Virus record (IMG/VR): IMGVR_UViG_3300046002_006897
Origin: an uncultured virus (IMG/VR IMGVR_UViG_3300046002_006897)
Taxonomy: Duplodnaviria; Heunggongvirae; Uroviricota; Caudoviricetes
Reading direction: 5' to 3' (one strand)
Length of the DNA: 64,000 nt
A program made the position numbers and the translations under genes. Below the pieces are notes generated by a model. That model saw only the letters and a program-made list of their open reading frames with translations. It searched no databases and was not told the origin of the DNA. This document shows, in pieces, positions 11,026 through 36,357 of this stretch (its first letter is position 1; the number at the start of each line of letters is the position of its first letter).

Positions 11026-11484
11026 TTAGGGAAAGTAAGTAAGAAAAAGTTTGACAGAAGATAAAAAAGAGTCAAGGTGACAGAAGATAAGAAAAAGAAA
11101 GGGTAGCGAAAGAGAAAGTTAAAAAAAGTTCGAAAAGATAGTTGACAGCGAAAGATAAAAGAGTAAGATGGTCAGCGTTGTAGTAGCAAAGGCGAAACAA
11201 CAAAAAGTTTTTTCACAGTACAATTTTGACAGGTAAAAGCGCACCTAGAAAGCGTGCTAAAATAGCCACCGGCCCATTTAGGGACCGTTTTGTGGGAATC
11301 AATATCAATAAGTTCAGGTAGGGTTGAGGTTAGAGTGAGTAACTTTATTGTGAGGCCGAAGTATAAGTTATTTTTAATAAAGTTGGAGAGATCAACAATA
11401 AGATACGCAAGTAGCGTATTGAGTTGGCCTCTCCTAACAATTTCAAGTCGTTCTACTGACCGACTCTAAATAAATCAGTTATAT

Positions 11485-11563
11485 GGAAGTCAAGCTATTC
11501 GGGACGGGCACCTCCCTCTTAAGGAGAACATTCGTGTGGGTTCAACTCCCACGGCTTCCACCA
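11485..11563 (+). tRNA. tRNA-Lys(CTT)
   Basis: Cloverleaf, anticodon loop CTCTTAA, CCA end. Confidence 0.85.
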
Positions 11564-11624
11564 TTTTTTCAAAATAATTGATGTTATGTGAGTATATATT
11601 ATATTTATTTTTACACATCAAATT

Positions 11625-11957
11625 ATGAACGACCATAAAGATTTACTTGGAGAATTTCTGTCCGGTGGATGGATTGTAGCAATAATCGGAGCAGCGGGTA
11701 TGATAGCAAGATTGCTGACCGACGATGTAAAGATTACACTGATGCAACAAGTTAAAAGAATACTTGCCGCATCAATATGTTCTGTCATTACATGGTTTTT
11801 ATTAGAAAATGTAGATTTAAGTAGTCTGACTAAAGCCGTAACATACGGAGTAGTTGGAGTAATCAGTCCAGAAATTTTAGAAGGTTTGTCGAAGTTGGGA
11901 AAGAGTTTTGCAAAAAATCCTTTCAAATTCTTCAGGCGGACAAAAAAGATTGAGTAA
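11625..11957 (+). CDS. Small membrane protein, holin-like
   Basis: Three hydrophobic segments and a basic C-terminus. Confidence 0.55.
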   Translation: MNDHKDLLGEFLSGGWIVAIIGAAGMIARLLTDDVKITLMQQVKRILAASICSVITWFLLENVDLSSLTKAVTYGVVGVISPEILEGLSKLGKSFAKNPFKFFRRTKKIE

Positions 11958-11961
11958 TAGT

Positions 11962-12038
11962 GCGGGGTTGATGTTTAACGGTTAGCATACGAGTTTTCCA
12001 AACTTGATGTGGGGGTTCGAATCCCCCACCCCGCTCCA
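11962..12038 (+). tRNA. tRNA-Gly(TCC)
   Basis: Loop TTTCCAA, TCCA end. Confidence 0.95.
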
Positions 12039-12115
12039 ATTTGTACTAGGTTTGGTGTTCCAACCATTCCGAAGATATATAGCAAACACTAAATACGCAG
12101 TACAGCAAATTTTTT

Positions 12116-12201
12116 GGCTTATTATACCGCTAAGGACGCGGTTCGCACTGTAAATGCGAAGCCCTCGGGCTGGGTTGGTTCGATACCGACATAAGCCACC
12201 A
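12116..12201 (+). tRNA. tRNA-Tyr(GTA)
   Basis: Loop CTGTAAA, long variable arm, CCA. Confidence 0.9.
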
Positions 12202-12208
12202 TTTTTAT

Positions 12209-12284
12209 CCGCTTATAGCTCAATTGGCAGAGCACGCTCTTTATAGGGGCATGGTTGTGGGTTCAACTCCTACTGGGCGGACCA
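12209..12284 (+). tRNA. tRNA-Ile(TAT)
   Basis: Loop TTTATAG, CCA. Confidence 0.85.
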
Positions 12285-12295
12285 ATTTATAATAC

Positions 12296-12383
12296 GGAAA
12301 GTTGGCAGAGTGGTCTAATGCAGGACTTTGCTAAAGTCCCGATCCGAAAGGGTCCATAGGTTCGAATCCTATATTTTCCGCCA
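12296..12383 (+). tRNA. tRNA-Ser(GCT)
   Basis: Loop TTGCTAA, long variable arm, GCCA. Confidence 0.95.
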
Positions 12384-12448
12384 AATTTAGATTCTTGCAA
12401 GACGGTGTTCCTTTGAATTGCAATTCAATCGAAGTGACCGCAGCTGAA

Positions 12449-12532
12449 GTCAGTGGTGAATGATATAATGGCATTATTTCTCCCATAAAGGAGAATATCT
12501 GGGTTCGACTCCCAGTTTACCGAAAAGCTGAC
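12449..12532 (+). ncRNA. tRNA-like core with no CCA, extended by a GTCAG/CTGAC helix
   Basis: T-arm CTGGG-TTCGACT-CCCAG; TCTCC/GGAGA stem with a 6-nt loop. Confidence 0.55.
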
Positions 12533-12549
12533 ATGAGGCAAAACTTTAC

Positions 12550-12624
12550 GCCGAATAAACATAAATGGTAATGTGCTAGTCTTGTAAACTAGATAAGCGG
12601 GTTCGATTCCCGCATTTGGCTCCA
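12550..12624 (+). tRNA. tRNA-Thr(TGT)
   Basis: Loop CTTGTAA, CCA. Confidence 0.95.
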
Positions 12625-12709
12625 ATTTGTAGGTCGCAATATTCTGAATTATAATTCAGCGAAGATATTCCAATTATTGCGTTAGTGGAATTCGCCTATA
12701 ACAATTTAT

Positions 12710-12785
12710 GCCGTGTGACATAGCTGGTTGTGATGACTCCTCTGCAAAAGGATGGAGATTGGTTCGATTCCAATACGCGGCTCCA
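12710..12785 (+). tRNA. tRNA-Cys(GCA)
   Basis: Loop CTGCAAA, TCCA. Confidence 0.85.
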
Positions 12786-12793
12786 ATTTATAT

Positions 12794-12867
12794 GCGGGAT
12801 TAGTTTAGTGGTAGAATGTGACATTGCCAATGTCGATACGGGAGTTCGATTCTCCCATCCCGCACCA
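12794..12867 (+). tRNA. tRNA-Gly(GCC)
   Basis: Loop TTGCCAA, CCA. Confidence 0.95.
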
Positions 12868-13004
12868 CTTTGACAGGATGGAATGGGCGTCGTATAGTTG
12901 GTAAATCAACTTGCAGTCCAACGTGAACCAACCCAGCAGCAACGAAGCGTGAGAAAAGTTGAGTTCTCATGTGAAGCTAGTAGAAGTTCTGTCAATAATT
13001 TTAT

Positions 13005-13082
13005 GGCCATGTGACGTAACTGGATAAACGTGTTAGTTTTAGAAACTAAATTCTGTGGGTTCGAGTCCCACCTTGGCTACCA
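13005..13082 (+). tRNA. tRNA-Leu(TAG), short variable loop
   Basis: Loop TTTAGAA, 5-nt variable loop, CCA. Confidence 0.8.
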
Positions 13083-13298
13083 TTTTAGGTCGAAACAATG
13101 AGTTGCATAAATTCAATGAAACGGTTGGTTAATAACCAACAGCCACTTTTCTTGGCGCGACTTTTAATTTTGATAGTGTATGTGTTTTCGTCTCTAAAAT
13201 CTTACGGCACATGGAAGACGTGTAACGGGTTCAAAGTCCGACCACTTTGCATTGAGCAGAGTGAGTAAGCCAACCATATACATTATCAAAAAATTTAT

Positions 13299-13374
13299 GG
13301 GAGTTTGGTGAAGGCGGTCCTCACGTCGCACTGAAGATGCGAAGAAGTTGGTTCAATTCCAACAGCTCCCACCA
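13299..13374 (+). tRNA. tRNA-Phe(GAA)
   Basis: Loop CTGAAGA, CCA. Confidence 0.9.
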
Positions 13375-13380
13375 TTTTAT

Positions 13381-13454
13381 TGAGATATGTTGTAGTGGTA
13401 GCAACGGAGTCTTTGAAACTCTTAGTCTTGGTTCGATTCCAAGTATCTCAGCCA
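13381..13454 (+). tRNA. tRNA-Gln(TTG) copy 1
   Basis: Loop CTTTGAA, GCCA. Confidence 0.95.
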
Positions 13455-13603
13455 GTTTGAGAAACCTATACCAATAGGTGTATAAGCCGAACGGCCCGAG
13501 AGGGATGGACGTGAGCTATAGCATGGATGTGTAATCGAAAGAGTATCCACCAAGACTTGTTCTTGGCGCAAAAATCCATTGTGACAACACCTCAAACATT
13601 TAT

Positions 13604-13679
13604 CGGAGTGTGGTGACAAAGGTTGTCGATTCGTTTTGGAAACGAAATTATGCAGGTTCGAGTCCTGTCACTCCGACCA
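13604..13679 (+). tRNA. tRNA-Pro(TGG)
   Basis: Loop TTTGGAA, CCA. Confidence 0.9.
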
Positions 13680-13686
13680 CTTTTAT

Positions 13687-13760
13687 TGAGATATGTTGTA
13701 GTGGTAGCAACGGAGTCTTTGAAACTCTTAGTCTTGGTTCGATTCCAAGTATCTCAGCCA
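13687..13760 (+). tRNA. tRNA-Gln(TTG) copy 2
   Basis: Identical to 13381-13454. Confidence 0.95.
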
Positions 13761-13767
13761 TTTTTAT

Positions 13768-13842
13768 TGCGATATAGTGTTAAGGTAGCACAGCCCGACT
13801 GTTAATCGGGAAGTGATGGTTCAAGTCCATCTTTCGCAGCCA
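13768..13842 (+). tRNA. tRNA-Asn(GTT)
   Basis: Loop CTGTTAA, GCCA. Confidence 0.95.
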
Positions 13843-14007
13843 TTTTATTATACAACAACTGCGGAGATAGTAATTCCAAAAAAGTTGTTACTGTATGAGT
13901 AGAAGATATCGTGAATTAATTACTATGTCACGTGAAGCGAAAAATATAGGATAATATAAAGGTGAAGCCTCATCTTGAATGGGTTAAATTCCCAAAGGCA
14001 TTTTTAT

Positions 14008-14085
14008 TCTCATCGGGCTGGCATGGTGTTAAGCACGTGACTGTTAATCACGATAAGCGTGGATCGTTACCACGGGTGGGAGCCA
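14008..14085 (+). tRNA. tRNA-Asn(GTT)
   Basis: Loop CTGTTAA, atypical T-loop, GCCA. Confidence 0.85.
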
Positions 14086-14219
14086 ATTTAATGTAGCTGA
14101 GAACGGATGCAAGCGGTATACCGAAACGCCGAAAGGTTGACCTTGGAAACAAGCGGTATGTGTCGATACAAAAGTATCATAACAGAGTGGAACTCACACT
14201 CTCATTAAAAATTTTATAT

Positions 14220-14298
14220 GGAACTAAAGCCACAGTGGACGGGCAGCGGTCTTTTAAACCGTTAATTCGTGTGGGTTCAACTCCCACTGGTTCCACCA
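14220..14298 (+). tRNA. tRNA-Lys(TTT)
   Basis: Loop CTTTTAA, CCA. Confidence 0.9.
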
Positions 14299-14358
14299 TT
14301 TTGTTAGCTTTTTTGTACATATGAGTTATATTTATAGAAATACCACCATTATTTACAT

Positions 14359-14784
14359 ATGAAAAAAAGCGAACTTAAAGATATTATAGCCGAATGCGTT
14401 ACCGAAGTCATTCAAGAACAAGGTTTACCAGAAGGTTGGGGACAAGACATGTTGAAAGGTTTGAAGAAGACCTTCACGGGCGATGGTCCAGACAGTGGAG
14501 CAGCACATTATGATAGAAATGCAAAAATGCACAATAAACGCGTGGATTACAGTAAAGCATCTATCGGAGATAAGTCTAAGATGCGGGCCGGAGCAAGAAA
14601 AACGGTAGAGGCTTCGAAACAAGAATTTGAAACTAAGTTAAAAGAAATGCTGCGCAGTGCATTCGTAGAAGCCGAATCAGTCGGAATGAAGCGCGAAGAC
14701 GTAACAAAAGCATTTCGTTCCGCAATCACGAGTATTTTTAACAAATATAAAAGACTCGAAGAGATAGCAGAAGAACAACAATAA
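14359..14784 (+). CDS. hypothetical protein with MKKSELK..I.E leader
   Basis: ORF preceded by TATATTTATA. Confidence 0.7.
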   Translation: MKKSELKDIIAECVTEVIQEQGLPEGWGQDMLKGLKKTFTGDGPDSGAAHYDRNAKMHNKRVDYSKASIGDKSKMRAGARKTVEASKQEFETKLKEMLRSAFVEAESVGMKREDVTKAFRSAITSIFNKYKRLEEIAEEQQ

Positions 14785-14936
14785 TTTTTAGGTGATGTGT
14801 GAGGTTTCACTGACTCACACTTAGTCGAGAAGCTCGATAACCTTTTGGGTGTGAGGGGCGACTATCGTGTCGCCGACATCTTTGGTCCCCACCAATTTGT
14901 CGCAATGGGGCAATACCTCACACATATAATTTATAT

Positions 14937-15019
14937 AGCAGAGACAAGCCAAGGGACGCTGAGTGCGCTCATAACGCATCCGAAAGGTATGATGGATTCG
15001 ATTTCCATCTCTGCTACCA
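14937..15019 (+). tRNA. tRNA-Met(CAT), atypical with an extra variable hairpin
   Basis: Loop CTCATAA, CC-GAAA-GG arm, CCA. Confidence 0.75.
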
Positions 15020-15108
15020 ATTTCGTATTCGTGTTTCGGACCAAAAGAATATAGAGTGACATACGACTCTTTCAATTGGAAAAATCAGAGCACCCAATTT
15101 ATTTTTAT

Positions 15109-15184
15109 CAGTGTGTGGTGCAAGAGGTTGGCGATTCCGCTTGGAACGGAAATTATGTAGGTTCGAGTCCTATCACACTGACCA
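15109..15184 (+). tRNA. tRNA-Pro(TGG)
   Basis: Loop CTTGGAA, CCA. Confidence 0.9.
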
Positions 15185-15249
15185 ATTTTTAACATACACA
15201 GTAGTCCTCTTGATTTATATCAATGTCAATAATGGCTGTGTGAAACTTT

Positions 15250-15326
15250 GGAGTGGGAGCTTATGAAGCACAAGCAATAGATTGTCAATCTATAGAAAGT
15301 CGGTGCAAATCCGATGCACTCCGCCA
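15250..15326 (+). tRNA. tRNA-Asp(GTC)
   Basis: Loop TTGTCAA, GCCA. Confidence 0.8.
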
Positions 15327-15453
15327 ATTTTACGATTTGAATATGGACGCATATTCATTCGTCGCGTCTGATTCAAGGTGACTGGCAGTCCTTGTGGCTG
15401 GGTTCTAGACTAAGTTGTTTCGACTACAACGGCGCGACATATTTAAATTTTAT

Positions 15454-15529
15454 GGTGTTATAGTGTAAAGGTCGCACTGGCTGATTGTCAATCAGCAAGA
15501 CGGGGTTCGAGTTCCCCGTAACACCGCCA
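15454..15529 (+). tRNA. tRNA-Asp(GTC)
   Basis: Loop TTGTCAA, GCCA. Confidence 0.9.
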
Positions 15530-15570
15530 CTTTGAGTCGCAATATGGAAACATATATGCCGATTTTATAT

Positions 15571-15646
15571 GCGCACGTCGTCCAACTGGATAGGACATCA
15601 GATTACGAATCTGAGAATTAGGGTTCGAATCCCTACGAGCGCACCA
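15571..15646 (+). tRNA. tRNA-Arg(ACG)
   Basis: Loop TTACGAA, CCA. Confidence 0.95.
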
Positions 15647-15652
15647 TTTTAT

Positions 15653-15729
15653 GGAGACGCTGGCAAAGTAGAGCCGACCTCGCTTCGAACGAGTTATAAC
15701 TATAGGTTAGAGTCCTATCGCCTCCACCA
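15653..15729 (+). tRNA. tRNA-Arg(TCG)
   Basis: Loop CTTCGAA, CCA. Confidence 0.8.
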
Positions 15730-16400
15730 ATTTTTGAGCGGCAGCGTGGAAGGACATACAGCCTTGAGAAGTTCTATTACGCACAGTATAGTGTACATAA
15801 AGCTGTGCCTCTGAAACGAAGCGATGACTACCTAATAGATCGGGTCAGATTCAATGTCATCAATAGGTATCAATTCCTATCCGACTCAAATTAATTTTGA
15901 ATAGCAGCTCGGAGTGTAGAAAAGTTTTTCCCTTTTCGGTACGAGCATGGGGTTAAACCATCAGCGGAAAAATAAGCAACGAAAAGCCTCTAAGTTCATA
16001 ACAATATGTTAAATGGGAAAATAATAACATGTTGGAATTTATGCGCAAACAGGAAACTCGCTATAGTGTAGATATATAAAGCAAAACTACATCTATTCAA
16101 AAATTTTTGGATATGTTGCGGAACGTCTAGACAATTAACGCAAAGCTAGTCAAAGAGAATTAACATTCTTGATTGTAAGTTCAAATCTTACCTATCCAAA
16201 TTTTTTAATTTACAGAGAGTTAAGGGTACAGCCATTGGAATATCGCAGTGGGTTCATGTAGCGTAATAAGCACTCTTGACCAAACACTTTCTAATATTTG
16301 GACAGAAGTCTAGTTGTTTGTAAAACAGGAGTCGGTGTAATCATATTGATGTTTTTCAACAGGCAACCGTGCGCGGAATAATCGGGTGCTGTTCATTTTT

Positions 16401-16476
16401 GGCCCTATAGAATAATGGTTGAGTTCGCCTGCCTTTCAAGCAGGAGAGCCGGGATCGTGACCCGGTGGGGCTACCA
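16401..16476 (+). tRNA. tRNA-Glu(TTC)
   Basis: Loop CTTTCAA, CCA. Confidence 0.9.
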
Positions 16477-16606
16477 ATTTGTCATCATTGAGGGCAGAAA
16501 TATGAAATAGCAGTGGTGTAATGGTAGCACAGGGACAGCAAATCTTGCGATATGGTTCGATTCCATGCAGTGAAAAATAAGTCTGAGCGACCTGAAATGA
16601 CAAAAA

Positions 16607-16879
16607 TTTTTGTTGAGGAGGTTGGTCTAGAGGCAGCAATCCTATAATGAGTAGAGTCCGTACTCCAAGCTAGTAAAAGTGCAGCGATGAATTCTCGAAT
16701 TCTGCATTTCCCATTACCAACTATAATGGTTCGCGTGGAGGCAATTCAGACGCGAACCGATAAGAACTACGGAATTGACCTTAGCTCGGTGCCGAAAATG
16801 TAAGCGCAAATATAGTTGTTATATATTTGGCCGCGAAACGGTGTTAGCTCTTTTGGCGTAATAGCACACTCTTCAAAAA
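16607..16879 (+). ncRNA. Structured RNA containing a 23S rRNA H43/H44 (L11-binding domain)-like module
   Basis: AGGAGGTTGGTCTAGAGGCAGCAATCCTATAATGAGT ... GCGTAATAGCACACT, closed by a terminal helix. Confidence 0.75.
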
Positions 16880-16888
16880 TATTTAAAT

Positions 16889-16967
16889 GGCGATATCGTC
16901 TATGTTTGGAAAGGACAGGATATTCTCAATATTCAAAGGTCGGTTCGACTCCCGACTATCGCCACCA
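16889..16967 (+). tRNA. tRNA-Glu(CTC)
   Basis: Loop TTCTCAA, CCA. Confidence 0.85.
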
Positions 16968-16969
16968 TT

Positions 16970-18328
16970 TTATGTTTTCCATTTACGAATTAAGTTTTTC
17001 AACTTGATTCTGTGCTCGCGGATTTTTTGCTTACTGCGCAATCTGATATAATTAGCAACTTCCTCCGCGCCACCAAAAGTTAACATTTCAACTATATCGT
17101 TAATATCTTTTGGAATAAATTTTTCTTGGGTCTGTGGGTCGGCGAACATGTATGTTTGATTTGAAGAATTTCGATATGCTTGATATTTTTTCATCGCATT
17201 CCCTAACACACTTTCTAGATTGAAATCGGATAATCTCACCAAGTTTTCGTAACTAGAATCGTCCAATACACCGCGAACAATATTTGACATTGGTTTGCCG
17301 TAAGTTTTAATATTCACAACGTGTGTTATAGCGTTGGTGATTTGGTCGAGATAATCTCCGTCGTAACTTTTCAAGAACTTGGTCAAATCTTTAGAGAGGA
17401 ATACACCATTGTCTCTTCCATGATGAAAGATGCACCACCACGCTAAGTTTTTTCCCAGCGCATCGTAATCTTCGGTTCCTAGATATTCTTCTAGGTCGTC
17501 CTCTATACGACCGTCGTCTAGGATGTTATAATGTTCTGCTATTAGCGTAGACAGTTTAGGAACAAACTCGTCGCCATGATCTTTTACCCACTCTTCGTTT
17601 TTCTTTTCTTCCACTTCTTGCTGTCTGTCTGAAATATTGCTTTCATCGTCATCAAGGTATTCCGTTAATTTTTCCATTGCTTCTTCCGGCAATATTTCTG
17701 ATAAATATTCCCCCGGTCTAGACATGGTATGGTCCTGAGAATTATACAATGTCCAATCACGACTGTTCGCCCCGGACGGAGAGAGCAACGCCAATCGAGC
17801 CATTGGTTTTTCAGATTCTCGGTCATGTATAAGAATTACGGTGTTTTCAGAGTAGTAATCCTGCCAATAATCTTCGCTGCTTGAAATACACCAGTTGGTT
17901 TTTCCGGCTGCAAAATTTCCAACTGCATCTTGTGAGCGCGGACCGACAATTAAAAATCTGTCATCTTCGTAAATCAGTTCGGTGTCTGCGGCTAATTTTT
18001 CTCTGTTGCTAAGTTTCTTCGCGGCTTCGTCGGTGGCTCGGACAAACTCTTCATAAGTTTTGTACTTGTTGATGTCAATGCTTGATAGCTTGTTGAAGTG
18101 CACCTTAATTCTCTGTAACAAATCATTAGCGAACACTTTGTTTTCAATTTTGTCGGATACGGTGACGATCTTTCCAAGCCAGTCGAGATACTTCTTGTTG
18201 GCGGTAAAGTCGCCATCTATAAGTAAGTTCTGCATCCATAATGGGAGGTTTACGTATTTCTCTTGAAAGTCAGAAACTCGACTTTCCAGCAATAAATATG
18301 GCAATAAAGATGATAATTTGATGTGCAT
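16970..18328 (-). CDS. hypothetical protein (contains the WCIS motif seen in large-phage proteins)
   Basis: 452-aa ORF; TATATTTATA upstream on the minus strand. Confidence 0.75.
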   Translation of the reverse strand: MHIKLSSLLPYLLLESRVSDFQEKYVNLPLWMQNLLIDGDFTANKKYLDWLGKIVTVSDKIENKVFANDLLQRIKVHFNKLSSIDINKYKTYEEFVRATDEAAKKLSNREKLAADTELIYEDDRFLIVGPRSQDAVGNFAAGKTNWCISSSEDYWQDYYSENTVILIHDRESEKPMARLALLSPSGANSRDWTLYNSQDHTMSRPGEYLSEILPEEAMEKLTEYLDDDESNISDRQQEVEEKKNEEWVKDHGDEFVPKLSTLIAEHYNILDDGRIEDDLEEYLGTEDYDALGKNLAWWCIFHHGRDNGVFLSKDLTKFLKSYDGDYLDQITNAITHVVNIKTYGKPMSNIVRGVLDDSSYENLVRLSDFNLESVLGNAMKKYQAYRNSSNQTYMFADPQTQEKFIPKDINDIVEMLTFGGAEEVANYIRLRSKQKIREHRIKLKNLIRKWKT

Positions 18329-29211: not shown

Positions 29212-29234
29212 TAATTAACAAGTTGTAAGACTTC

Positions 29235-29263: not shown

Positions 29264-29300
29264 CATTTATAATTAATTTTGATATATATTTATTAAACAT

Positions 29301-29807: not shown

Positions 29808-30225
29808 TTTGTTCGTTCAGTTCAATGTACCGTGAAAAGCAATGGCCACAATGAGTCAACCGTGCTGAGTAATTTAGCGAGACGCAGGGTAAGGGAAACA
29901 CTCAAGATAACTTACTATCAGGTATTACGACAACCCCTAAGTTAAAAGGTGGAATGAACAAAAACTTTGAGAATAAAAAAGGCACTTGGCCCGATGATAA
30001 TTGTGACGCTTGCAACCTCGCTAGAGGGAAATTGGTAGGCAAGCTGCGTCAGTCCGAAAGGATTGGTCGTCTAACTACGAGGTAATGCTCATCTTAGATG
30101 TAGATGTACAAGCACATCGTATAATAGCAGATTTCAGCACAGCCAAGAGGTAGAATGTCTGGCGGTTGATAGACACCTACTGAAAGATCATCATCCTAGG
30201 TTAGCAACTAGGTATTCTCGAAAAC

Positions 30226-30596
30226 TTTCGAAGTAAGCGACCTTGCGCTGGTGACTATAGCTGAGTTAAGATGCCATCCATAATACGGTAATCAACCCGT
30301 TGAGACGAATGGATGTAAAATTCTCAAAAATTAAAATTCTATAATTACTAGAGGAAGTTCGCCCCTGCATAACACGGCGAGGCAGAGCAAACGCAGAGCA
30401 GAACACGTTGTTGGGTCTCGGGTCCAACCGAGATAGTTGACAATTGAGGACGCTCGCTCTTAGCGGCTCGTTATCGACCTCACGCAAGCAGCAACCTCAA
30501 AACGTCAAAGTGTGGGTGTTACACGTTGTAAAGGCAGGTAGAGGGCTTAGACAAATGCAAGGATAAAACAGAAGGGCGGCTACGGCTGCTTCGAAA
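30226..30596 (+). ncRNA. rnpB: RNase P RNA (divergent)
   Basis: P4 halves GAGGAAGTTCGCCC and AACAGAAGGGCGGCTA; P2 CCTTGC/GCAAGG; P1 TTTCGAAG/CTTCGAAA; AGACAAATG. Confidence 0.8.
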
Positions 30597-30610
30597 AACT
30601 TTAGTAAAAT

Positions 30611-30696
30611 GCAAGGGTAGGTAAGTGGCTAAAACAGGAAGTTTCATAAGCTTTCGCCGTAAGGCTTCGCGGGTTCGAATCCCGCCTCTTGCACCA
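30611..30696 (+). tRNA. tRNA with CAT anticodon and a long variable arm
   Basis: Loop TTCATAA, GCC-GTAA-GGC arm, CCA. Confidence 0.8.
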
Positions 30697-30705
30697 ACTT
30701 TAGAT

Positions 30706-30780
30706 GCCGACAAAACATAAATGGTGATGTGCGAACTTGGTAAGTTCGAAAAATGGGTCCGATTCCCATTGTTGGCTCCA
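30706..30780 (+). tRNA. tRNA-Thr(GGT)
   Basis: Loop TTGGTAA, CCA. Confidence 0.9.
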
Positions 30781-30786
30781 ACTTAT

Positions 30787-30863
30787 GCCGATGAAAGACA
30801 CTTGATTCTGTATGTCAGGTATTCGTCGTAACGTACCCAGTTCGATTCTGGGCATCGGCTCCA
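30787..30863 (+). pseudogene. tRNA-Thr-like element with aberrant D and anticodon arms
   Basis: Perfect GCCGATG/CATCGGC acceptor, T-arm and TCCA end; anticodon arm irregular. Confidence 0.6.
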
Positions 30864-30867
30864 ATTT

Positions 30868-31047
30868 ATGAAAATTGAAACAATCGAAGATATAGCAAAA
30901 GTTATAGTAAACCTTCCATCCGATTTAAGAGAGTACTTGATAAGTAATGTTACTCCGTCTACTTTTGTGTCATGTCTTCTTTTATTGGGGGCAGGAGGAA
31001 ATATAAAAGATTTCGCCTCCGCACTCAAAGAACATATGGTTATATGA
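30868..31047 (+). CDS. hypothetical 59-aa protein
   Basis: MKIETIED...; ATGA overlap with the next gene. Confidence 0.55.
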   Translation: MKIETIEDIAKVIVNLPSDLREYLISNVTPSTFVSCLLLLGAGGNIKDFASALKEHMVI

Positions 31048-31475
31048 AGAAGATACTAATAATGGGACTACCCGGCGCAGGAAAAACAACACTGGCCAAA
31101 GAATTGGCCAAGATGTTGAATGCAGTTCATTTCAACGCCGATGAAATTCGCCGAGAGGTGAACAAAGACCTGAAATTCGAGTTAGTTGACCGTATAGAAC
31201 ACGCTAGGCGCATGGGAGTGCTATGTGACATTGTCGTAAGAAGCGGACATTATGCAATTGCAGATTTTGTTTGTCCAACCAGAGAAACGCGAAAGGCATT
31301 CGGCGCGGACAAATCATTTATAATATGCATGGATAGAATTGAAGCTGGTAGGTACGAGGATACAAATAAATTGTTTGAATATCCAGCAATGTGCAATGTT
31401 CGAGTTGGAAATACAGGAACAGCCGAAGAATGGGTGAATAAAATTTATCATAAATTAGCAAGTGCAGGTCAGTGA
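31044..31475 (+). CDS. Adenylyl-sulfate kinase-like P-loop protein
   Basis: MGLPGAGKTT, NADEIR, DL.F...DR, FVCP. Confidence 0.75.
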   Translation: MKKILIMGLPGAGKTTLAKELAKMLNAVHFNADEIRREVNKDLKFELVDRIEHARRMGVLCDIVVRSGHYAIADFVCPTRETRKAFGADKSFIICMDRIEAGRYEDTNKLFEYPAMCNVRVGNTGTAEEWVNKIYHKLASAGQ

Positions 31476-31528
31476 TATATATAGTATTTTTATAAGAACC
31501 AGTCTGTTCTGTTATATTTATTATAACT

Positions 31529-32188
31529 ATGAGCAAACACACCACCATCAGTATAGAAGATTTGGAAAAAACTATTTTGTTTTTAGAAACTCCTCGCCCA
31601 ATATTGAAACGGGTGATAAAATTGTGTGAAGTCAGAGAATATCCAACCGGCGTATTCATCATAACGGAAAATGAATGCAGTCAGTTTATGTTTATACTAA
31701 TTTCAGGAACGGTTGACTTGATCAAGGGAAATAAATCAAAGAAGATAGCAACTCTTGGCGCTGGAAGTATAATAGGAGAAGGAACTTTGATTTCTGGTGC
31801 GCCTAGAAGTGCAACAATAGTAACTGCTTCACATGTAAAAGTTGCAATAATCAATAAAGATTCATTTGATAAAATGTTGACTATGCATCCTTCAATTCCT
31901 ATTGCATTGATGAAACTACATTCAAGTAGATGCAAGTCTGTTGTGGCAAATGTTAATATATTCAAGTCTTATGGGTTTATGGTTATTGCAGCGTTGTTTG
32001 GTTTGATGACATTGAAAAATTCACATAGTGTTATAGATATAGAGTCAATCAGTCCTGTGTTGAAGCAGTTGGCTGGATTGATACCAGACCAATATATGTC
32101 AGTTTGTGGACCAGCCGCTTTGCTTGCATTCGTAAAATCTCAGAAGATGGATATTAATAGTATACAAGCAAAATTAGAGAAAATTTGA
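31529..32188 (+). CDS. Cyclic-nucleotide-binding domain protein with C-terminal hydrophobic helices
   Basis: II.E.E, FILISG.V, G.IIGE..L....PRSATIV. Confidence 0.85.
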   Translation: MSKHTTISIEDLEKTILFLETPRPILKRVIKLCEVREYPTGVFIITENECSQFMFILISGTVDLIKGNKSKKIATLGAGSIIGEGTLISGAPRSATIVTASHVKVAIINKDSFDKMLTMHPSIPIALMKLHSSRCKSVVANVNIFKSYGFMVIAALFGLMTLKNSHSVIDIESISPVLKQLAGLIPDQYMSVCGPAALLAFVKSQKMDINSIQAKLEKI

Positions 32189-32247
32189 TGAAATTGTAGT
32201 TGACGAACAACAGAATGTGTGTATAGTCATTGTTGTTCTTTTGATAC

Positions 32248-32338
32248 GGCTGTGTGGCGGAATTGGCTATACGCACTTCGCTTAGAACGAAGCACCTATA
32301 AAAAAGGTATATGGGTTCGACTCCCTTCGCAGCCACCA
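32248..32338 (+). tRNA. tRNA-Leu(TAG)
   Basis: Loop CTTAGAA, long variable arm, CCA. Confidence 0.9.
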
Positions 32339-32752
32339 AATAAAAATAGTAATCGCGATGATCAAAGATGAATTTTGCTACAAATATACTTGACAGTATC
32401 AAATAATAATCTATAGTCATTCTTGTTCTTTTAAATACTTTTTTCTGGTCGTAAATACTTTGGGTCTCGTAAACCCATTTACTGGTTGGTATACAATGAC
32501 AAACACGTAGTAAATGTTGATTGAAATTCCTCTGCTTCCGAAGCGCGGGCCTGATATTATAGTTAGGTTAGAGCACTTGAGACATTTACTTGATTGTATA
32601 TCGAAGGGGAGCATAGCTGCTGTGCATACCGAGAGATTACCAACTCAACAAGCAGTCAGAAAAAAAATAAGTGCTGACATTGGGGATGACTCACCTGCTG
32701 ATGAACCAATGGCGCGGAGACGCAGGTCACTACCGCCAGCACTTCACTTTAC

Positions 32753-32838
32753 GGGCATGTGGATAAAGGAAACTGGTCACAACTATTTGTTTTAAAAACA
32801 AACACCCTCTGTGAGTTCGAATCTCACCATGCCCACCA
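32753..32838 (+). tRNA. tRNA-Leu(TAA), expanded D region and short variable loop
   Basis: Loop TTTAAAA, CCA. Confidence 0.75.
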
Positions 32839-32843
32839 ATTTT

Positions 32844-33017
32844 ATGGATACTCAAAACACATCAAACTATGATGGTGCAAAAATCGCAAAGCGTGAAGCA
32901 ATGCGTAAAGAACTAAAGCGAATGAAGCTGGAAAAGATGATTGCACTAAATCAAACAATCAGTGAGAAGGCTGATGTTATTGCACAGCGTTGGATTACTG
33001 AGTTGAAACAACAATAA
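32844..33017 (+). CDS. hypothetical small protein
   Basis: ORF between tRNAs. Confidence 0.55.
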   Translation: MDTQNTSNYDGAKIAKREAMRKELKRMKLEKMIALNQTISEKADVIAQRWITELKQQ

Positions 33018-33024
33018 TTTTTAT

Positions 33025-33110
33025 GGCAGTGTAGGAGAATTGGTATATCCACCCGACTCAAAATCGGAGGGCGCAAGCCATTGTCGGTTCGAGTCCGACC
33101 ACTGCTACCA
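33025..33110 (+). tRNA. tRNA-Leu(CAA)
   Basis: Loop CTCAAAA, variable arm, CCA. Confidence 0.9.
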
Positions 33111-33116
33111 ATTTAT

Positions 33117-33201
33117 GCGCATGTGGATGAGGGAAGCTGGCACAACCGTTTGACTTAAAATCAAATATCCTATATGGGTTCGAATCCCTTCGTGCGCACC
33201 A
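33117..33201 (+). tRNA. tRNA-Leu(TAA), expanded D region and short variable loop
   Basis: Loop CTTAAAA, CCA. Confidence 0.75.
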
Positions 33202-33205
33202 AAAC

Positions 33206-33361
33206 ATGAAACAAAAAACAGAATGTGAGCAATTGATTAGAATTATTCTGACCGGTAATGAGGTCGGGCCAAATATCTACCAATTGATGGAGGCAATGGG
33301 AAAGGAACGAGTTCTGGAAAGGATAAAATATTTCCAACAAGTTATGGCATTGACAAAATAG
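33206..33361 (+). CDS. 51-aa protein resembling the GluRS/class I LysRS C-terminal anticodon-binding helices
   Basis: IRIILTGNEVGPNIYQLMEAMGKERVLERI. Confidence 0.6.
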   Translation: MKQKTECEQLIRIILTGNEVGPNIYQLMEAMGKERVLERIKYFQQVMALTK

Positions 33362-33385
33362 GTAAAATGCCCTATAGTTATAAGC

Positions 33386-34165
33386 ATGAAAAAATTCTTA
33401 TTACTTGTTCTAATGTCAGTTTCATTGTTAGCCGCAGATAAAAAGAACCCGGCGAGCAAAGCGTATATTACTGACGTAGAAGGACAAGCAACAGTTTTTG
33501 TCGGTGAAGGACGAATTGAAGATTCCAAGAAACGCGAAGTTTACGCCGCCGAAGGAATTGTATTAGAAACAGAAAAGAAGTCGAACCAATCTTTAGTTTT
33601 ATCGAATGGTACGGGAATTTACATGGACGAAGTTACTCACCTTGAAGTAAAAAAATTTGTACAAGAACCATTTACGCCGAATCGAAGTGACCTTGACATG
33701 GAACCATCCATTTCTCAAACGGGCGGGCTTATATCACACGGTTACGTTGCTATCTGCACTCCAAAAATTGTGGCAGGAAGCCGAATGGTGTACACTACTC
33801 CACACGGAGAAATTAAACTTTTCAATAACAAGGTTGCAATCAACGTGGGCGACAATGCAACAGAAGTCATCCCAGTCGAAGGTGAATTTAAAGTAGAACT
33901 GCGCTCTGGTCACTTTGAAATTATAAAGGTTGGTGATAGGGTCATATTTGACGGACAGATAATTACAACGCGCAAAGCCGACAAAAAAGAAATGGACAAA
34001 GCAACCGAGAACGTGGCAATCGCGTGTAATGCACGGAAAACAGTGTACTTTGATGTTGTGAAAAGATATGAATCTGACGGAGTTATTGAAATATTAGTCG
34101 CGTATCCAGTAACCCAGATAAAGCTGCCGACCGAATTTACAGTAAGTCCCGCCACAATCAAATAA
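33386..34165 (+). CDS. Exported FecR-like beta-rich protein
   Basis: Signal peptide, L.LSNGT.I, TPHG, T.V..VEG. Confidence 0.6.
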   Translation: MKKFLLLVLMSVSLLAADKKNPASKAYITDVEGQATVFVGEGRIEDSKKREVYAAEGIVLETEKKSNQSLVLSNGTGIYMDEVTHLEVKKFVQEPFTPNRSDLDMEPSISQTGGLISHGYVAICTPKIVAGSRMVYTTPHGEIKLFNNKVAINVGDNATEVIPVEGEFKVELRSGHFEIIKVGDRVIFDGQIITTRKADKKEMDKATENVAIACNARKTVYFDVVKRYESDGVIEILVAYPVTQIKLPTEFTVSPATIK

Positions 34166-34332
34166 TTTTATGCTAAAATCATTCTGGAGAATATGGGCTA
34201 AATCGCTCGGAGAAAAAGCGAGTGCAAATAATTGCGAAGCAGACAAAGTTGCTTTGGTTCGCACACTTATTGTGCTTTGTTATGTTATTACGAATATATT
34301 CATTGTTGCTGGTGTAATTAGACATTGGTAAT

Positions 34333-34782
34333 ATGAATGAAAAGTATTTGGAGAACGACAACCACTGGACGGCTGCACCTTACCCACTACGACCATGTAC
34401 AGAAGAAGTTGAGATATACAAAAATAATTTGTTGTCTGGAAAAACTTTGTTGCTTGGATGCACGGCACCGTTACTTGACATTTGCGACGAGGCAATAGAT
34501 TTAGTTGTAAGAGTTCAGAATCCAAAAATACGACAGGGTGATTGGTATAATATATCTGGATTTTATGACAACATTATTACCGATGGAGCAATCAATCTTA
34601 CTGGCCCATCGCTAATAGATGCCGTAAAACCACATTGCAAACAGCTTATAAGCAGAGTATTTTCTAGGAAATTTTCGTATATGAAATATGCAAAATTATT
34701 TTATACCGAGTTTCCCAATGCAACAAAAATAGCAGAAATAAACGAATCATGTCCGATTTTCATCTGGAAGTTTACAAGTTAG
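34333..34782 (+). CDS. hypothetical protein, methyltransferase-like fold
   Basis: LLLGCT, GDW, YDNIITDG. Confidence 0.5.
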   Translation: MNEKYLENDNHWTAAPYPLRPCTEEVEIYKNNLLSGKTLLLGCTAPLLDICDEAIDLVVRVQNPKIRQGDWYNISGFYDNIITDGAINLTGPSLIDAVKPHCKQLISRVFSRKFSYMKYAKLFYTEFPNATKIAEINESCPIFIWKFTS

Positions 34783-35768
34783 TAAAAGCATTGGAAGAAA
34801 ACCAATACAAAGAGCGTGATATATCAAAGTTGATACCAGCGTGCAATATTCTCACTAGAGAAAATTTACAGAAGATTCCAATAGATAAGTCACAGCCATT
34901 TTGTTCTACTAGCGGCGCAACTGGCCAACCCGTGTTTGTTCAAAAATTTACGGCCCAACATGTTTGGTATTGGGCGACAAACATGCGAGAATTGATTTGG
35001 AGAAAATGGGACACATCATTGACATTGGCAGTCATCAATGCACCGGTTTCAGAAGAAAAAATAACACCTTGGCCAACGAATCCATATTTGTTTCCGAATA
35101 AGGTTGGAAAATGCCATATGCATCCAACAAGAGGAGATTTGCAAGGATGGCTGAACAGAGTGCAGCCAGATTATTTGCATACATATCCATCAATCGCCGC
35201 CACACTTGATACATCTAAACTAAAAGATGTAAAAACAACAAGTGAAAGAGGTGGTAGTAATTATAGTTCGGAAGAAGTGGGTACGATTGGCCTAGAATGT
35301 CCAGATAATCCAGATGTATATCATATTATGGAGAACATTGTTTTAGAAATCGTAGATGACAATGATATTGTGTTGACCGATCTTACGCACCCATATATCA
35401 AGAGATACAGGATAGGAGACAAAGGAGAGTTTTCTACATGCAGTTGTGGAAGAAAACTGCAAACTATCAACCGAAATGTGCTTGGTAGAGTTCGCAATAT
35501 GGTGAAATATCCAGATGGAACAACCGCATGGCCATTGTTTGCTAGCAATACAATAAGAAATGCATGTGATACAATAAAAAGATTTCAATGCATACAAGAA
35601 TCATACTCGGATATCACAGTAAAGATTCAAGGAACTGTACCAGCTGATAAAATTGAAGATGTAAAAAATTTGATATTGAAGAGACTCAATTATCCGTTCA
35701 ATCTAAAGATACAGATTGTTGATAGTTTCCCAGAAGGAAAATTTGAAGAGTTTGTCTGTAAGATATAA
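34749..35768 (+). CDS. Phenylacetate-CoA ligase/CapK-like adenylate-forming enzyme
   Basis: TSGATGQP, YSSEE, RYRIGD, CSCGR, GR. Confidence 0.8.
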   Translation: MSDFHLEVYKLVKALEENQYKERDISKLIPACNILTRENLQKIPIDKSQPFCSTSGATGQPVFVQKFTAQHVWYWATNMRELIWRKWDTSLTLAVINAPVSEEKITPWPTNPYLFPNKVGKCHMHPTRGDLQGWLNRVQPDYLHTYPSIAATLDTSKLKDVKTTSERGGSNYSSEEVGTIGLECPDNPDVYHIMENIVLEIVDDNDIVLTDLTHPYIKRYRIGDKGEFSTCSCGRKLQTINRNVLGRVRNMVKYPDGTTAWPLFASNTIRNACDTIKRFQCIQESYSDITVKIQGTVPADKIEDVKNLILKRLNYPFNLKIQIVDSFPEGKFEEFVCKI

Positions 35769-35774
35769 TTTTAT

Positions 35775-35854
35775 GCTACCGTATGCCGTCTGCCTTCTAA
35801 GCAGAAGAAAGCTAATTGGAACACATGTAGGTTCGAGTCCTATCGGTAGCACCA
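35775..35854 (+). tRNA. tRNA-Arg(TCT) lacking a canonical D-arm
   Basis: Perfect acceptor stem, TCTGC-CTTCTAA-GCAGA, T-arm, CCA. Confidence 0.75.
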
Positions 35855-35858
35855 TTTT

Positions 35859-35950
35859 GGAAGATTAACCAGTCAGGGTCACTGGAACCGCCTCGAAAAC
35901 GGATTGCTCGGCGAAAGCCGAGTGAGTTTCGATTACTCAGTTTTCCGCCA
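35859..35950 (+). tRNA. tRNA-Ser(CGA)
   Basis: Loop CTCGAAA, long variable arm, GCCA. Confidence 0.85.
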
Positions 35951-36357
35951 CGTTGGTCCATGAGTACATGGAGTATGAAATGCATATATATGGAATGGGT
36001 AAAAATGAGAGATGCAATAAACCGTTCCCCAATGAACAATTTCTCCAACTTTATTATAAATCTAGCGTTTTGTTGGCGTTGACATCTTTTATATAAATAT
36101 TAAAGCAATTATATTACATTGATTATAATAAGTAGATAAATTCATCTTATTGTAACAAAATACTTGACTTCTTATAAAGATTGAGTCATAGTTATGAGTT
36201 CAGTTAGAGAACAGCCTCCTATCCTACGGGATGAGGGCTTTAGATATACGAAAGGAACATATTATGGTTATCGCTATAGCATGTTGGACAGCCTTGGGAT
36301 TATTAATCATTACAGAAAGTGATTATCGTCCAAAGAACTGATAAAAAAGAAAACTAT

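What the first reader, a model, noticed from the sequence alone, without database searches (positions are those of the whole stretch)
11382..36049. Cassette array of about 25 unannotated structured RNAs interleaved with the tRNAs
Seen: most ORF-free gaps between tRNAs are closed by their own 6-17 bp terminal helix and flanked by the same short AATTT(T)AT-type linkers that flank the tRNAs. Examples: 11382-11438; 12042-12104 (TGTACT/AGTACA); 12627-12701; 12870-12995 (TTGACAG/CTGTCAA); 13168-13291 (TTTTGATAGTGTATGTG/CATATACATTATCAAAA); 13455-13597 (GTTTGAG/CTCAAAC); 14087-14209; 14795-14925 (ATGTGTGAGGT/ACCTCACACAT); 15335-15448; 15733-15890; 15895-16102 (TTTTGAATAG/CTATTCAAAA); 16106-16200; 16209-16324; 16478-16604; 16607-16879; 21923-22005; 23052-23170; 24765-24918; 25779-25833; 29808-29962; 29966-30222; 32438-32667; 32669-32744; 35952-36049. 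The interiors have unrelated sequences, are richer in GC than the linkers, and contain hairpins, several with GNRA loops. G-U pairs in the closing stems point to selection on the + strand RNA. The RNase P RNA at 30226 has exactly the same packaging, which works as an internal positive control. Inference: a polycistronic precursor cut into a library of small stable RNAs (decoys, mimics, ribozymes), i.e. an RNA-level accessory arsenal that standard annotation misses.
Basis: partly seen in the sequence, partly recalled or inferred. Interest (0 to 1): 0.9.

Follow-up and report, generated by a model that had tools for sequence, protein, structure and literature searches.

The report
Folded RNA modules in phage tRNA array
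Between the roughly 48 tRNA genes of this uncultured lake-water giant phage lie some two dozen separate, self-closing RNA modules of unknown function, several clearly kept by evolution and matching no described RNA family, plus what looks like the phage's own copy of the tRNA-trimming ribozyme RNase P.

Summary
The window is part of a 74-kb IMG/VR phage fragment with at least 48 same-strand tRNA genes. An unbiased test on 81 tRNA-tRNA gaps from the window and related phages agrees.

Units are discrete evolutionary modules. Homology with about 40 related viral contigs breaks at unit borders (127 of 184 breakpoints). Units are 75-99% identical where a neighbouring ligase gene is 73-77%.

Three families show strong compensatory covariation with many G-U pairs, so they are plus-strand RNAs: 15895-16102, 32438-32667 and 16209-16299. 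No unit matches Rfam or is a tRNA.

The 30226-30597 unit has RNase P hallmarks (CR-I/CR-V P4, and a P2 that covaries with a second phage copy). It scores far below Rfam thresholds.

Eight units have no homologue. One reader boundary (16324) is wrong.

Processing into free stable RNAs, and any decoy or ribozyme role, remain inferred. RNA-library contigs cover some units, but that is weak evidence.

The closest known are T4 RNAC and RNAD. The scan has noted similar arrays in other phages.

The parts
11485..35950 (+). tRNA gene array with at least 48 tRNA genes, all on +, separated by (A/T)TTT...ATTT(T)AT linkers
   Evidence: ARAGORN finds 44; Rfam adds 15250-15323 and 35775-35851; relaxed ARAGORN adds 32753-32838 and 35859-35950; linker counts
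11382..11438 (+). Hairpin unit upstream of the first tRNA
   Evidence: z -6.1; 5' part about 75% conserved in 8 locus rows; may be a leader element and not a cassette
12042..12104 (+). Unit closed by TGTACT/AGTACA
   Evidence: 6 bp; only its first 35 nt are conserved, at 86-89%, in 5 locus rows
12627..12701 (+). Unit with 8-bp closing helix
   Evidence: one 97% homologue, in G009
12870..12995 (+). Unit with 10-bp closing helix
   Evidence: no homologue found
13168..13291 (+). Unit with 17-bp closing helix and a nearly invariant interior that includes a T-arm-like hairpin
   Evidence: z -4.3; 8 distinct homologues; matching 2-nt deletions on both helix strands in 2 of 9 sequences; an RNA-library contig covers it together with tRNA-Phe (X19 record 16)
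13455..13597 (+). Unit with 7-bp closing helix and two predicted GNRA loops
   Evidence: no homologue found
14087..14209 (+). Unit with 7-bp closing helix and two predicted GAAA loops
   Evidence: no homologue found; an RNA-library contig covers 14003-14151 (X20 record 25)
14795..14925 (+). Unit with 11-bp closing helix, 50% GC
   Evidence: z -5.8; no homologue found
15190..15246 (+).
   Evidence: read; conserved beside unit 15895 in other contigs; joined to unit 16607 in an RNA-library contig (X20 record 26)
15335..15448 (+). Unit with a T-arm-like hairpin next to an inner helix
15733..15890 (+). Unit with 6-bp closing helix
   Evidence: 7 distinct homologues at 96-99%; an RNA-library contig covers 15732-15913 with 2 differences (X19 record 18)
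15895..16102 (+). 208-nt multi-helix RNA family, the best supported unit
   Evidence: 19 distinct sequences; 54 pairs, 99.6% paired against 31-39% when slid; 11 pairs changed on both sides; 104 of 1026 cells are G-U; present in 32 viral loci
16106..16200 (+). Cloverleaf-like unit with a T-arm-like hairpin directly before the 3' strand of the closing helix and a 4-nt loop where the anticodon would be
   Evidence: MFE fold, T-arm scan; not called a tRNA; one homologue at 96-99%
16209..16299 (+). Module with corrected 3' border, closed by 16214-16220/16286-16292
   Evidence: 7 sequences; 7 of 22 pairs changed on both sides; 99.4% paired against 31-57% when slid
16300..16394 (+). Further module, closed by GGACAG/CTGTTC (GAACAG in relatives)
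   Evidence: alignment; in L014 a tRNA occupies this place; an RNA-library contig covers 16297-16414 (X19 record 19)
16478..16604 (+). Unit with 8-bp closing helix around an internal tRNA-like core
   Evidence: tRNA model 17.8 bits, E 4; T-arm; one homologue at 84-86%; z +0.6
16607..16879 (+). 273-nt, very highly conserved unit
   Evidence: 7 distinct homologues at 92-96%; too conserved for covariation, 2 of 80 pairs; RNA-library contigs cover it in X19 and X20
21923..22005 (+). Unit with 9-bp closing helix
   Evidence: no homologue found
23052..23170 (+). Unit with 10-bp closing helix
   Evidence: no homologue found; z -0.1
24765..24918 (+). Unit with 11-bp closing helix, lying between two ORFs
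   Evidence: z -3.2; one 93% homologue, in G005, whose match starts at the unit's first base and runs about 11 nt past its 3' end
25779..25833 (+). Short unit with 6-bp ends
   Evidence: the MFE fold does not close with them; no homologue found. Weak.
29808..29962 (+). Unit with 11-bp closing helix
   Evidence: one 74.6% homologue, in G005, whose match stops at the unit border
29966..30222 (+). 257-nt unit with 10-bp closing helix
   Evidence: z -2.7; one 96% homologue, in G002, whose match ends at both unit borders
30226..30597 (+). RNase P RNA-like unit: P1 at the ends, P2 30241-30246/30557-30562, CR-I 30351-30365, CR-IV-like 30551-30557, CR-V 30568-30582
   Evidence: below Rfam thresholds
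32438..32667 (+). 230-nt multi-helix RNA family
   Evidence: 5 sequences at 77-85% (4 distinct homologues over 32438-32744); 13 of 71 pairs changed on both sides, one of them in the closing helix; 97.7% paired against 37-46% when slid
32669..32744 (+). 76-nt unit with 8-bp closing helix
   Evidence: 99% identical in G001 and G002; 87% partial match in G005 and G006
35952..36049 (+). Unit with only 5-bp ends
   Evidence: no homologue found. The weakest of the list.

Best explanation
The non-tRNA gaps of this phage's tRNA operon hold genes for discrete structured RNAs. Each is an independent module whose 5' and 3' ends pair in a unit-specific helix.

The modules are transcribed on the + strand together with the tRNAs. 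The closing helix folds each one into its own domain, so the flanking tRNAs stay spaced as if joined by the standard short linker. Inferred step: the modules are released like tRNAs, by a cut at the 5' side of each module and trimming of the U-rich 3' tail back to the helix. The cut would be made by RNase P, possibly helped by the phage's own RNase P-like RNA, or by an RNase E-type cut in the AU-rich linker. The products would be small stable RNAs like T4 RNAC and RNAD.

Shown: helix-closed architecture, conservation, covariation, strand, modular shuffling at linkers.

Inferred: co-transcription, excision, stability. What the individual RNAs do is unknown. My guess is roles in tRNA or translation upkeep, or in countering host attack on tRNAs, given the RNA-repair genes around the array.
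For: Helices are specific to each unit.

Three families have compensatory covariation far above the slid and shuffled controls:
- Unit 15895: 11 of 54 pairs, 0 of 500 shuffles reach it.
- Unit 32438: 13 of 71 pairs.
- Module 16209-16299: 7 of 22 pairs.
Unit 13168 shows matching deletions on both strands of its helix.

Strand: 104 of 1026 cells in unit 15895 are G-U and only 4 are unpaired. On the minus strand those G-U cells would be mismatches.

Unpaired stretches of unit 15895 are invariant in 19 sequences while its stems vary.

Units are 75-99% identical to relatives whose ligase gene is 73-77% identical.

Homology breakpoints fall within 8 nt of a module border in 127 of 184 cases, against 18.6% at random.

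Unit 15895 lies on the tRNA strand in all 30 of 32 loci that hold tRNAs, in 19 different contexts. In 2 loci it has no tRNA nearby, so it is a gene of its own.

No plus-strand terminator-like site lies in 10400-18400.

RNA-library contigs cover whole units (15732-15913, 16605-16877) and bridge unit-tRNA junctions (13166-13381, 14003-14151) in two runs of two studies.

No unit is a tRNA or a member of any Rfam family.

T4 carries two annotated small stable RNAs in the same genomic setting (PMC3014915 and PMC9697503, passages read).
Against: Eight of 25 units have no homologue in the fetched DNA.

Mean folding z is only -1.9 and is similar on the reverse strand.

Unit 16607 is too conserved to show covariation.

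High identity could reflect recent exchange of modules and not purifying selection.

Contigs cannot show RNA ends or strand, and RNA libraries can hold DNA.

Most units end in AAA, not CCA, and only 4 of 25 have a T-arm-like hairpin, so recognition by RNase P is not evident from sequence.

The covariance model of unit 15895 finds nothing in the more distant relatives, so no module is universal.
Confidence: 0.6

Rival explanations
1. The units are structured spacers. They fold on themselves only to keep neighbouring tRNAs from misfolding and to present the processing sites, and they are degraded after the cuts. They have no function as free RNAs.
For: The closing helix places the upstream CCA and the downstream leader side by side. 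Eight of 25 units are lineage-specific. Folding z-scores are modest.
Against: Internal helices covary and unpaired stretches are invariant, which a mere insulator does not need. Unit 15895 also occurs where no tRNA is nearby. Units are kept at 84-99% identity in most comparisons with relatives whose ligase gene is 73-77% identical.
Confidence: 0.17
2. The units are decayed or rearranged tRNA genes and patchworks of such remnants, with the acceptor stem surviving as the terminal helix.
For: T-arm-like hairpins occur in 4 of 25 units. The tRNA model scores 17.8 bits inside 16478-16604. Unit 16106-16200 folds as a cloverleaf.
Against: ARAGORN calls none of the 25 units a tRNA, even at relaxed thresholds or with introns allowed. 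The covarying folds of units 15895, 32438 and 16209 are not cloverleaves. Decaying sequence would not be more conserved than coding DNA.
Confidence: 0.1
3. The units are DNA-level mobile cassettes. Their inverted ends (TTTG...CAAA) and the duplicated ATTT linker would be recombination or insertion sites, and the RNA folds a by-product.
For: Unit ends are inverted repeats flanked by repeated ATTT. Homology breaks at unit borders. Arrays are mosaics, with 19 contexts for one unit.
Against: The paired ends differ from unit to unit beyond TTT/AAA. G-U pairs are tolerated on one strand only. Helices deep inside the units covary too. No transposase or integrase was seen among the array's ORFs. Recombination at shared linkers explains the shuffling without a dedicated element.
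Confidence: 0.08

Closest known systems
Phage T4 RNAC and RNAD (species 1 and 2 RNAs) in the T4 tRNA gene cluster
   Same: They are small non-tRNA RNA genes that sit directly against tRNA genes on the same strand. The T4 record annotates them as small, stable RNAs of 139 and 119 nt. Their function is still unknown (PMC3014915 and PMC9697503, passages read). In its predicted fold, RNAC has end-to-end pairing and a T-arm next to its 3' strand, like unit 16106-16200.
   Different: There is no sequence similarity beyond T-arm matches to tRNAs. T4 has two such RNAs; this window has about 25, from 55 to 372 nt, most without tRNA-like parts. They are shuffled as cassettes among relatives. Processing and stability are shown for T4 but not here.
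RNase P RNA (Rfam clan CL00002: bacterial type A RF00010, archaeal RF00373)
   Same: Unit 30226-30597 has a CR-I-like GAGGAAGTTCGCCC that can pair with a CR-V ACAGAAGGGCGGCTA to form P4 with a bulged U. It also has a CR-IV-like AGACAAATG, an AGAGCAAAC block, and P1 and P2 at the expected places. That these motifs correspond to the E. coli RNA is my own recalled knowledge.
   Different: It scores 22.3 bits against a gathering score of 84 for RF00373, and the Rfam alignment does not use the P4 proposed here. RF00010 gives no match. The specificity-domain motifs CR-II and CR-III were not identified. A long AU-rich stretch precedes P4. It is encoded by a phage. My two paper searches gave no paper on a phage-encoded RNase P RNA (two unrelated papers; none of the 10 papers listed contains 'rnpB'; listings only).
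GOLLD and ROOL RNAs
   Same: They are large structured RNAs of unknown function that often lie near tRNAs and in prophages (PMC5737381, ROOL section read).
   Different: No Rfam match to either. Those are single RNAs of about 600-800 nt. Here there are many small modules of 55-370 nt, each with its own closing helix.
Leader-trailer processing stalks of rRNA operons and RNase III sites of phage T7 early RNA (recalled)
   Same: Ends of a functional RNA pair across its whole length within a polycistronic transcript.
   Different: Those stalks are about 20 bp or more and are cut by RNase III. Here the helices are 5-17 bp, mostly 6-11, and they are part of the conserved unit itself.

Membership tests
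T4 RNAC/RNAD-type small stable RNAs of phage tRNA clusters | Non-tRNA RNA gene inside a phage tRNA cluster, on the tRNA strand | tested here: met
   (strand from G-U pairs)
T4 RNAC/RNAD-type small stable RNAs of phage tRNA clusters | Co-transcribed with tRNAs and processed to a discrete stable RNA | tested here: inconclusive
   RNA-library contigs cover units and bridge junctions, but they show neither ends nor strand, and DNA cannot be excluded
T4 RNAC/RNAD-type small stable RNAs of phage tRNA clusters | Sequence homology to T4 rnaC or rnaD | tested here: not met
   blastn finds only T-arm matches to tRNAs, E 0.47 or worse
RNase P RNA | P4 helix formed by CR-I and CR-V with a bulged U | tested here: met
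   30351-30365 pairs with 30568-30582 by reading the sequence; the same two motifs occur in L143
RNase P RNA | P1 and P2 helices at the canonical places, supported by covariation | tested here: met
   P2 is CCTTGC/GCAAGG in the window and ACGTTC/GAACGT in L143, in both directly after AAATG; two sequences only
RNase P RNA | Score at or above the Rfam gathering threshold | tested here: not met
   RF00373 22.3 bits against 84; RF00010 no match even at E 10
RNase P RNA | Specificity domain (CR-II/CR-III) and catalytic activity | not tested
   motifs not identified by eye; activity needs an assay
tRNA (RF00005) | Cloverleaf with anticodon loop, recognised by tRNA models | tested here: not met
   none of the 25 units is called; the best is 17.8 bits inside 16478-16604
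GOLLD, ROOL, Y RNA, self-cleaving ribozymes and all other Rfam 15 families | Match to the family's covariance model | tested here: not met
   no match at E 5 or below in 3408 nt of gaps apart from two tRNA hits; none at E 10 in 29800-30620 apart from the RNase P hit and a chance-level one
RNase III processing stalks | Closing duplex of about two helical turns | tested here: not met
   5-17 contiguous pairs, median 8

The most novel reading that the evidence does not exclude
A clade of lake-water giant phages carries an RNA toolkit built as exchangeable cassettes. It comprises its own reduced RNase P ribozyme, which matures a roughly 50-tRNA operon independently of the host, and dozens of new structured RNA classes. 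Some of these are new ribozymes or tRNA-shaped decoys that blunt host nucleases and other defences aimed at tRNAs.
Probability: 0.2. Interest if true: 0.9.

Novelty: new variant of a known kind. Interest (0 to 1): 0.7.

Why it matters
Phage genome annotation counts tRNAs and proteins and leaves the rest of tRNA regions blank. Here about as much DNA in the densest part of the array encodes unknown structured RNAs as encodes tRNAs.

Several of these RNAs are conserved as strictly as tRNAs. They show the hallmarks of sophisticated RNAs: invariant loops, covarying stems, multi-way junctions. The two T4 RNAs of this kind have had no known function for fifty years. A clade with dozens of such families, present or absent in different combinations, offers comparative leverage on that old question.

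A phage-encoded RNase P RNA, if active, would be a new kind of viral independence from the host's RNA-processing machinery.

Tried and rejected
Rfam. The gathering scan of the window and the E-value scans of 11000-37000, of 20 separate gap loci and of 29800-30620 gave no family for any unit. The exceptions were the weak RNase P hit and a 17.8-bit tRNA-like hit. RF00010 searched in G000, G001, G002, G003 and G005 gave nothing.

GenBank phages. A distant blastn of 11000-17000 matched only tRNAs.

Relatives of the RNase P-like unit. blastn found none in 10 related records. The 15-mer scan gave 62 loci: three plausible (two identical copies and L143), the rest chance or coding matches. The two-block pattern found only the identical copies in viral contigs and nothing in metagenome contigs.

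The 14-mer for unit 32438 was too unspecific. It returned at least 116 loci and added no new distinct homologue.

Covariance model R1 of unit 15895 found no distant members in 26 further loci, including the T4 tRNA region.

Promoter-like sites are not above chance, 27 against 21 +/- 5.

ARAGORN with introns gave only two implausible calls with introns of over 1 kb.

Read laying. Parts of the stretch without cover in the RNA runs are not used as evidence. X17 and X18 are probably DNA.

Papers. Searches for a phage-encoded RNase P RNA returned nothing relevant (listings only). One search gave no paper on structured RNAs in phage tRNA arrays.

No Ro/TROVE protein was seen among 63 ORFs scanned against Pfam, so a Y-RNA reading was dropped.

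Failed calls. One script timed out on a bug and one stopped on an error; both were rewritten.

Full report
Setting.
The window is bases 7207-71206 of a 74.4-kb IMG/VR viral record that CheckV rates 34% complete. DNA runs that hold it are labelled lake water. ARAGORN finds 44 tRNA genes between 11485 and 33201, all on the + strand. Rfam adds two more tRNAs and a tmRNA at 41192-41583. Relaxed ARAGORN adds two further tRNAs. Pfam shows a phage replication and RNA-repair setting: family B DNA polymerase, clamp loader, two RNA ligases, RlaP, macro, NUDIX and a cyclic-phosphate receiver domain.

The observation.
- Of the 44 tRNAs, 42 end in an encoded CCA. The CCA is followed by (A/T)TTT, with T at +3 in 42 of 44.
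- tRNAs are preceded by ATTT(T)AT, with A at -2 and T at -1 in 35 of 44 each. Relatives G001 and G005 show the same.
- Most units start TTT(G) just after that CCA-A and end (C)AAA just before the next ATTT(T)AT. Three pairs of each helix therefore come from the linker itself.
- Beyond those three pairs, the paired sequences are unique to each unit.

For 600 mismatched combinations of the same 5' and 3' ends the mean is 3.7 (p 1e-16). There were 81 unique tRNA-tRNA gaps of 45-330 nt, 12 from the window and 69 from related contigs. A helix of 8 bp or more joins the first and last 22 nt in 29 of 81 gaps, against 8.6% of mismatched pairs. For 10 bp or more it is 12 of 81 against 0.8% (p 3e-8).

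Minimum-energy folds close with the terminal helix in 23 of 25 units. Mean z is -1.9, with 8 of 25 below -2. The reverse strand gives -1.7, so thermodynamics alone is mild evidence and does not name the strand. GNRA loops make up 6 of 25 predicted tetraloops.

Relatives.
The RNA ligase upstream of the array found 27 viral loci at 74-100% protein identity, among them a 297-kb record rated complete. An 18-mer of unit 15895 found 32 loci. I extended ten records. The arrays are mosaics.
- Units recur at 75-99% identity where the ligase gene is 73-77% identical at the DNA level.
- Matches stop at unit borders. Of 184 distinct breakpoints in 11380-16970, 127 lie within 8 nt of a module border, against 18.6% for random points. 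For breakpoints in or next to units it is 49 of 72 against 26%.
- Eight of 25 units had no homologue: 12870, 13455, 14087, 14795, 21923, 23052, 25779 and 35952.

Are they RNAs?
- Unit 15895-16102: 19 distinct sequences give a nine-helix fold with 54 pairs. Of all cells, 99.6% are paired, against 31-39% when partners are slid. Eleven pairs change on both sides, against 0-3 when slid. No shuffle of 500 reaches the observed values. G-U pairs fill 104 of 1026 cells and only 4 cells are unpaired, so the RNA is the + strand. Long unpaired stretches are invariant while the stems vary.
- Unit 32438-32667: 5 sequences at 77-85%. Thirteen of 71 pairs change on both sides, one of them in the closing helix. 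Paired cells are 97.7% against 37-46% when slid.
- Unit 16209: the conserved module ends at about 16299 and is closed by 16214-16220/16286-16292. Seven of 22 pairs change on both sides.
- Unit 13168: it keeps its 17-bp helix through matching 2-nt deletions on both strands in 2 of 9 sequences.
- Unit 16607-16879: it is 92-96% identical in 8 sequences, too conserved to test (2 of 80 pairs).

No unit matches any Rfam family, even with lax filters. None is called a tRNA at relaxed thresholds or with introns allowed. Four of 25 carry a T-arm-like hairpin: 13168, 15335, 16106 and 16478. Unit 16106-16200 folds as a cloverleaf with a 4-nt loop in place of the anticodon loop.

Independence from tRNAs.
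In all 30 of the 32 loci that hold tRNAs, unit 15895 lies on the tRNA strand. It has 19 different combinations of nearest tRNAs. Two loci have no tRNA at all and three have only 1-3. There it sits between protein genes, next to other modules such as the one at window 15190-15246. This fits an RNA gene, not a spacer.

Expression.
No plus-strand terminator-like site lies in 10400-18400. Two runs on record as RNA, from two studies, hold contigs that cover whole units:
- X19 record 18 covers 15732-15913 with 2 differences.
- X19 record 20 covers 16605-16877.
- X20 record 26 covers 16651-16877.
Other contigs bridge unit-tRNA junctions:
- X19 record 16 covers 13166-13381.
- X20 record 25 covers 14003-14151.
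Contigs cannot show ends, strand or level, and DNA can contaminate RNA libraries. This is weak support only.

The RNase P candidate.
Rfam gives only 22.3 bits to the archaeal model, whose gathering score is 84, and nothing to the bacterial type A model. Read directly, the sequence shows the following.
- GAGGAAGTTCGCCC at 30351 can pair with ACAGAAGGGCGGCTA at 30568, forming a P4 with a bulged U.
- AGACAAATG (CR-IV-like) lies just before a 6-nt strand, GCAAGG at 30557, that pairs with CCTTGC at 30241. That is P2 at its canonical place.
- The ends form P1.
- An AGAGCAAAC block follows P4.

A 205-kb viral contig (L143) has the same CR-I and CR-V motifs in its own tRNA array, with the same linker packaging. 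Its P2 is ACGTTC/GAACGT: all six positions differ and all are still complementary. That these motifs correspond to E. coli RNase P RNA is my recalled knowledge.

I rate it about 75% likely to be an RNase P RNA homologue with a reduced specificity domain. Activity is untested. My paper searches (listings only) showed no report of a phage-encoded RNase P RNA. That is not proof of absence.

Mechanism.
The best reading is that each gap holds one or more RNA genes built as self-closing modules inside a polycistronic tRNA transcript. The closing helix isolates each fold. It also brings the upstream CCA and the downstream leader together. A cut at each module's 5' side plus 3' trimming to the helix would then release both tRNAs and modules. 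This step is inferred. Most units lack a CCA and a T-arm, so recognition by RNase P is not evident. Shared linkers would let recombination shuffle modules, which fits the mosaic arrays. What the RNAs do is unknown.

Rival readings are scored in their own section: passive spacers, decayed tRNAs and DNA-level cassettes. Covariation of internal helices, invariant loops, one-strand G-U tolerance and occurrence away from tRNAs argue against each of them for the well-sampled units. They remain open for the orphan units.

Comparison with what is known.
The closest known are T4 RNAC and RNAD. They are annotated as small stable RNAs beside tRNA-Arg. Their role is unknown (PMC3014915 and PMC9697503, passages read). 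RNAC is predicted to fold with paired ends and a T-arm. They share no sequence with the units. GOLLD and ROOL share the habit of lying near tRNAs in prophages (PMC5737381, ROOL section read), but do not match.

Earlier notes of this scan describe folded spacer RNAs in tRNA arrays of other uncultured phages. The theme is therefore recurrent. I did not test those notes.

Verdict.
This is a new, much larger and modular variant of a known kind.

Noticed in passing
41192-41583: A full-length tmRNA gene on the + strand (77.8 bits, E 1.7e-28), about 5 kb beyond the tRNA array.
   Followed up: no
18471-18547: A tRNA with anticodon TCA, called tRNA-SeC by ARAGORN (44 bits with the tRNA model). It may be an opal (TGA) suppressor. 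ORFs in the window are long under code 11, so recoding is not evident here.
   Followed up: no
12454-12523: A tRNA-like gene with a shortened anticodon loop. ARAGORN gives a 2-nt 'anticodon'; the Rfam tRNA model scores 38.9 bits when the gap is searched alone.
   Followed up: partly
30787-30865: A perfect T-arm (CCCAG TTCGATT CTGGG) followed by CATCGGCTCCAA, which pairs with GCCGATG just after tRNA-Thr. This looks like a further tRNA that neither ARAGORN nor Rfam calls.
   Followed up: partly
L143:401-735 and 948-1212: An unrelated-looking 205-kb viral contig holds a second RNase P-like RNA inside its own tRNA array with the same CCA-ATTT linkers. It is followed by a weak match to the phage-associated manA RNA motif (24.7 bits against a gathering score of 55).
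   Followed up: partly
9365-10411, 36421-37721, 39575-39955, 43664-44779: RNA-repair genes ring the array: an Rnl2-like RNA ligase, RlaP nucleotidyltransferase, a macro domain, a cyclic-phosphate receiver domain and a T4 Rnl1-like ligase. This fits a phage that defends its tRNA pool.
   Followed up: no
13381-13454 and 13687-13760: Two tRNA-Gln(TTG) genes with identical Rfam scores, part of an internal duplication of about 94 nt at 97% identity (self-matches).
   Followed up: no
18635-20197 (-) and 27277-29211 (+): Protein genes embedded in the array: an ART-PolyVal ADP-ribosyltransferase domain protein on the opposite strand, and a 644-aa protein with TPS and DUF5649 repeats.
   Followed up: no
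15530-15570: A 41-nt gap between tRNA-Asp and tRNA-Arg that reads as a small hairpin with a GAAA loop.
   Followed up: no
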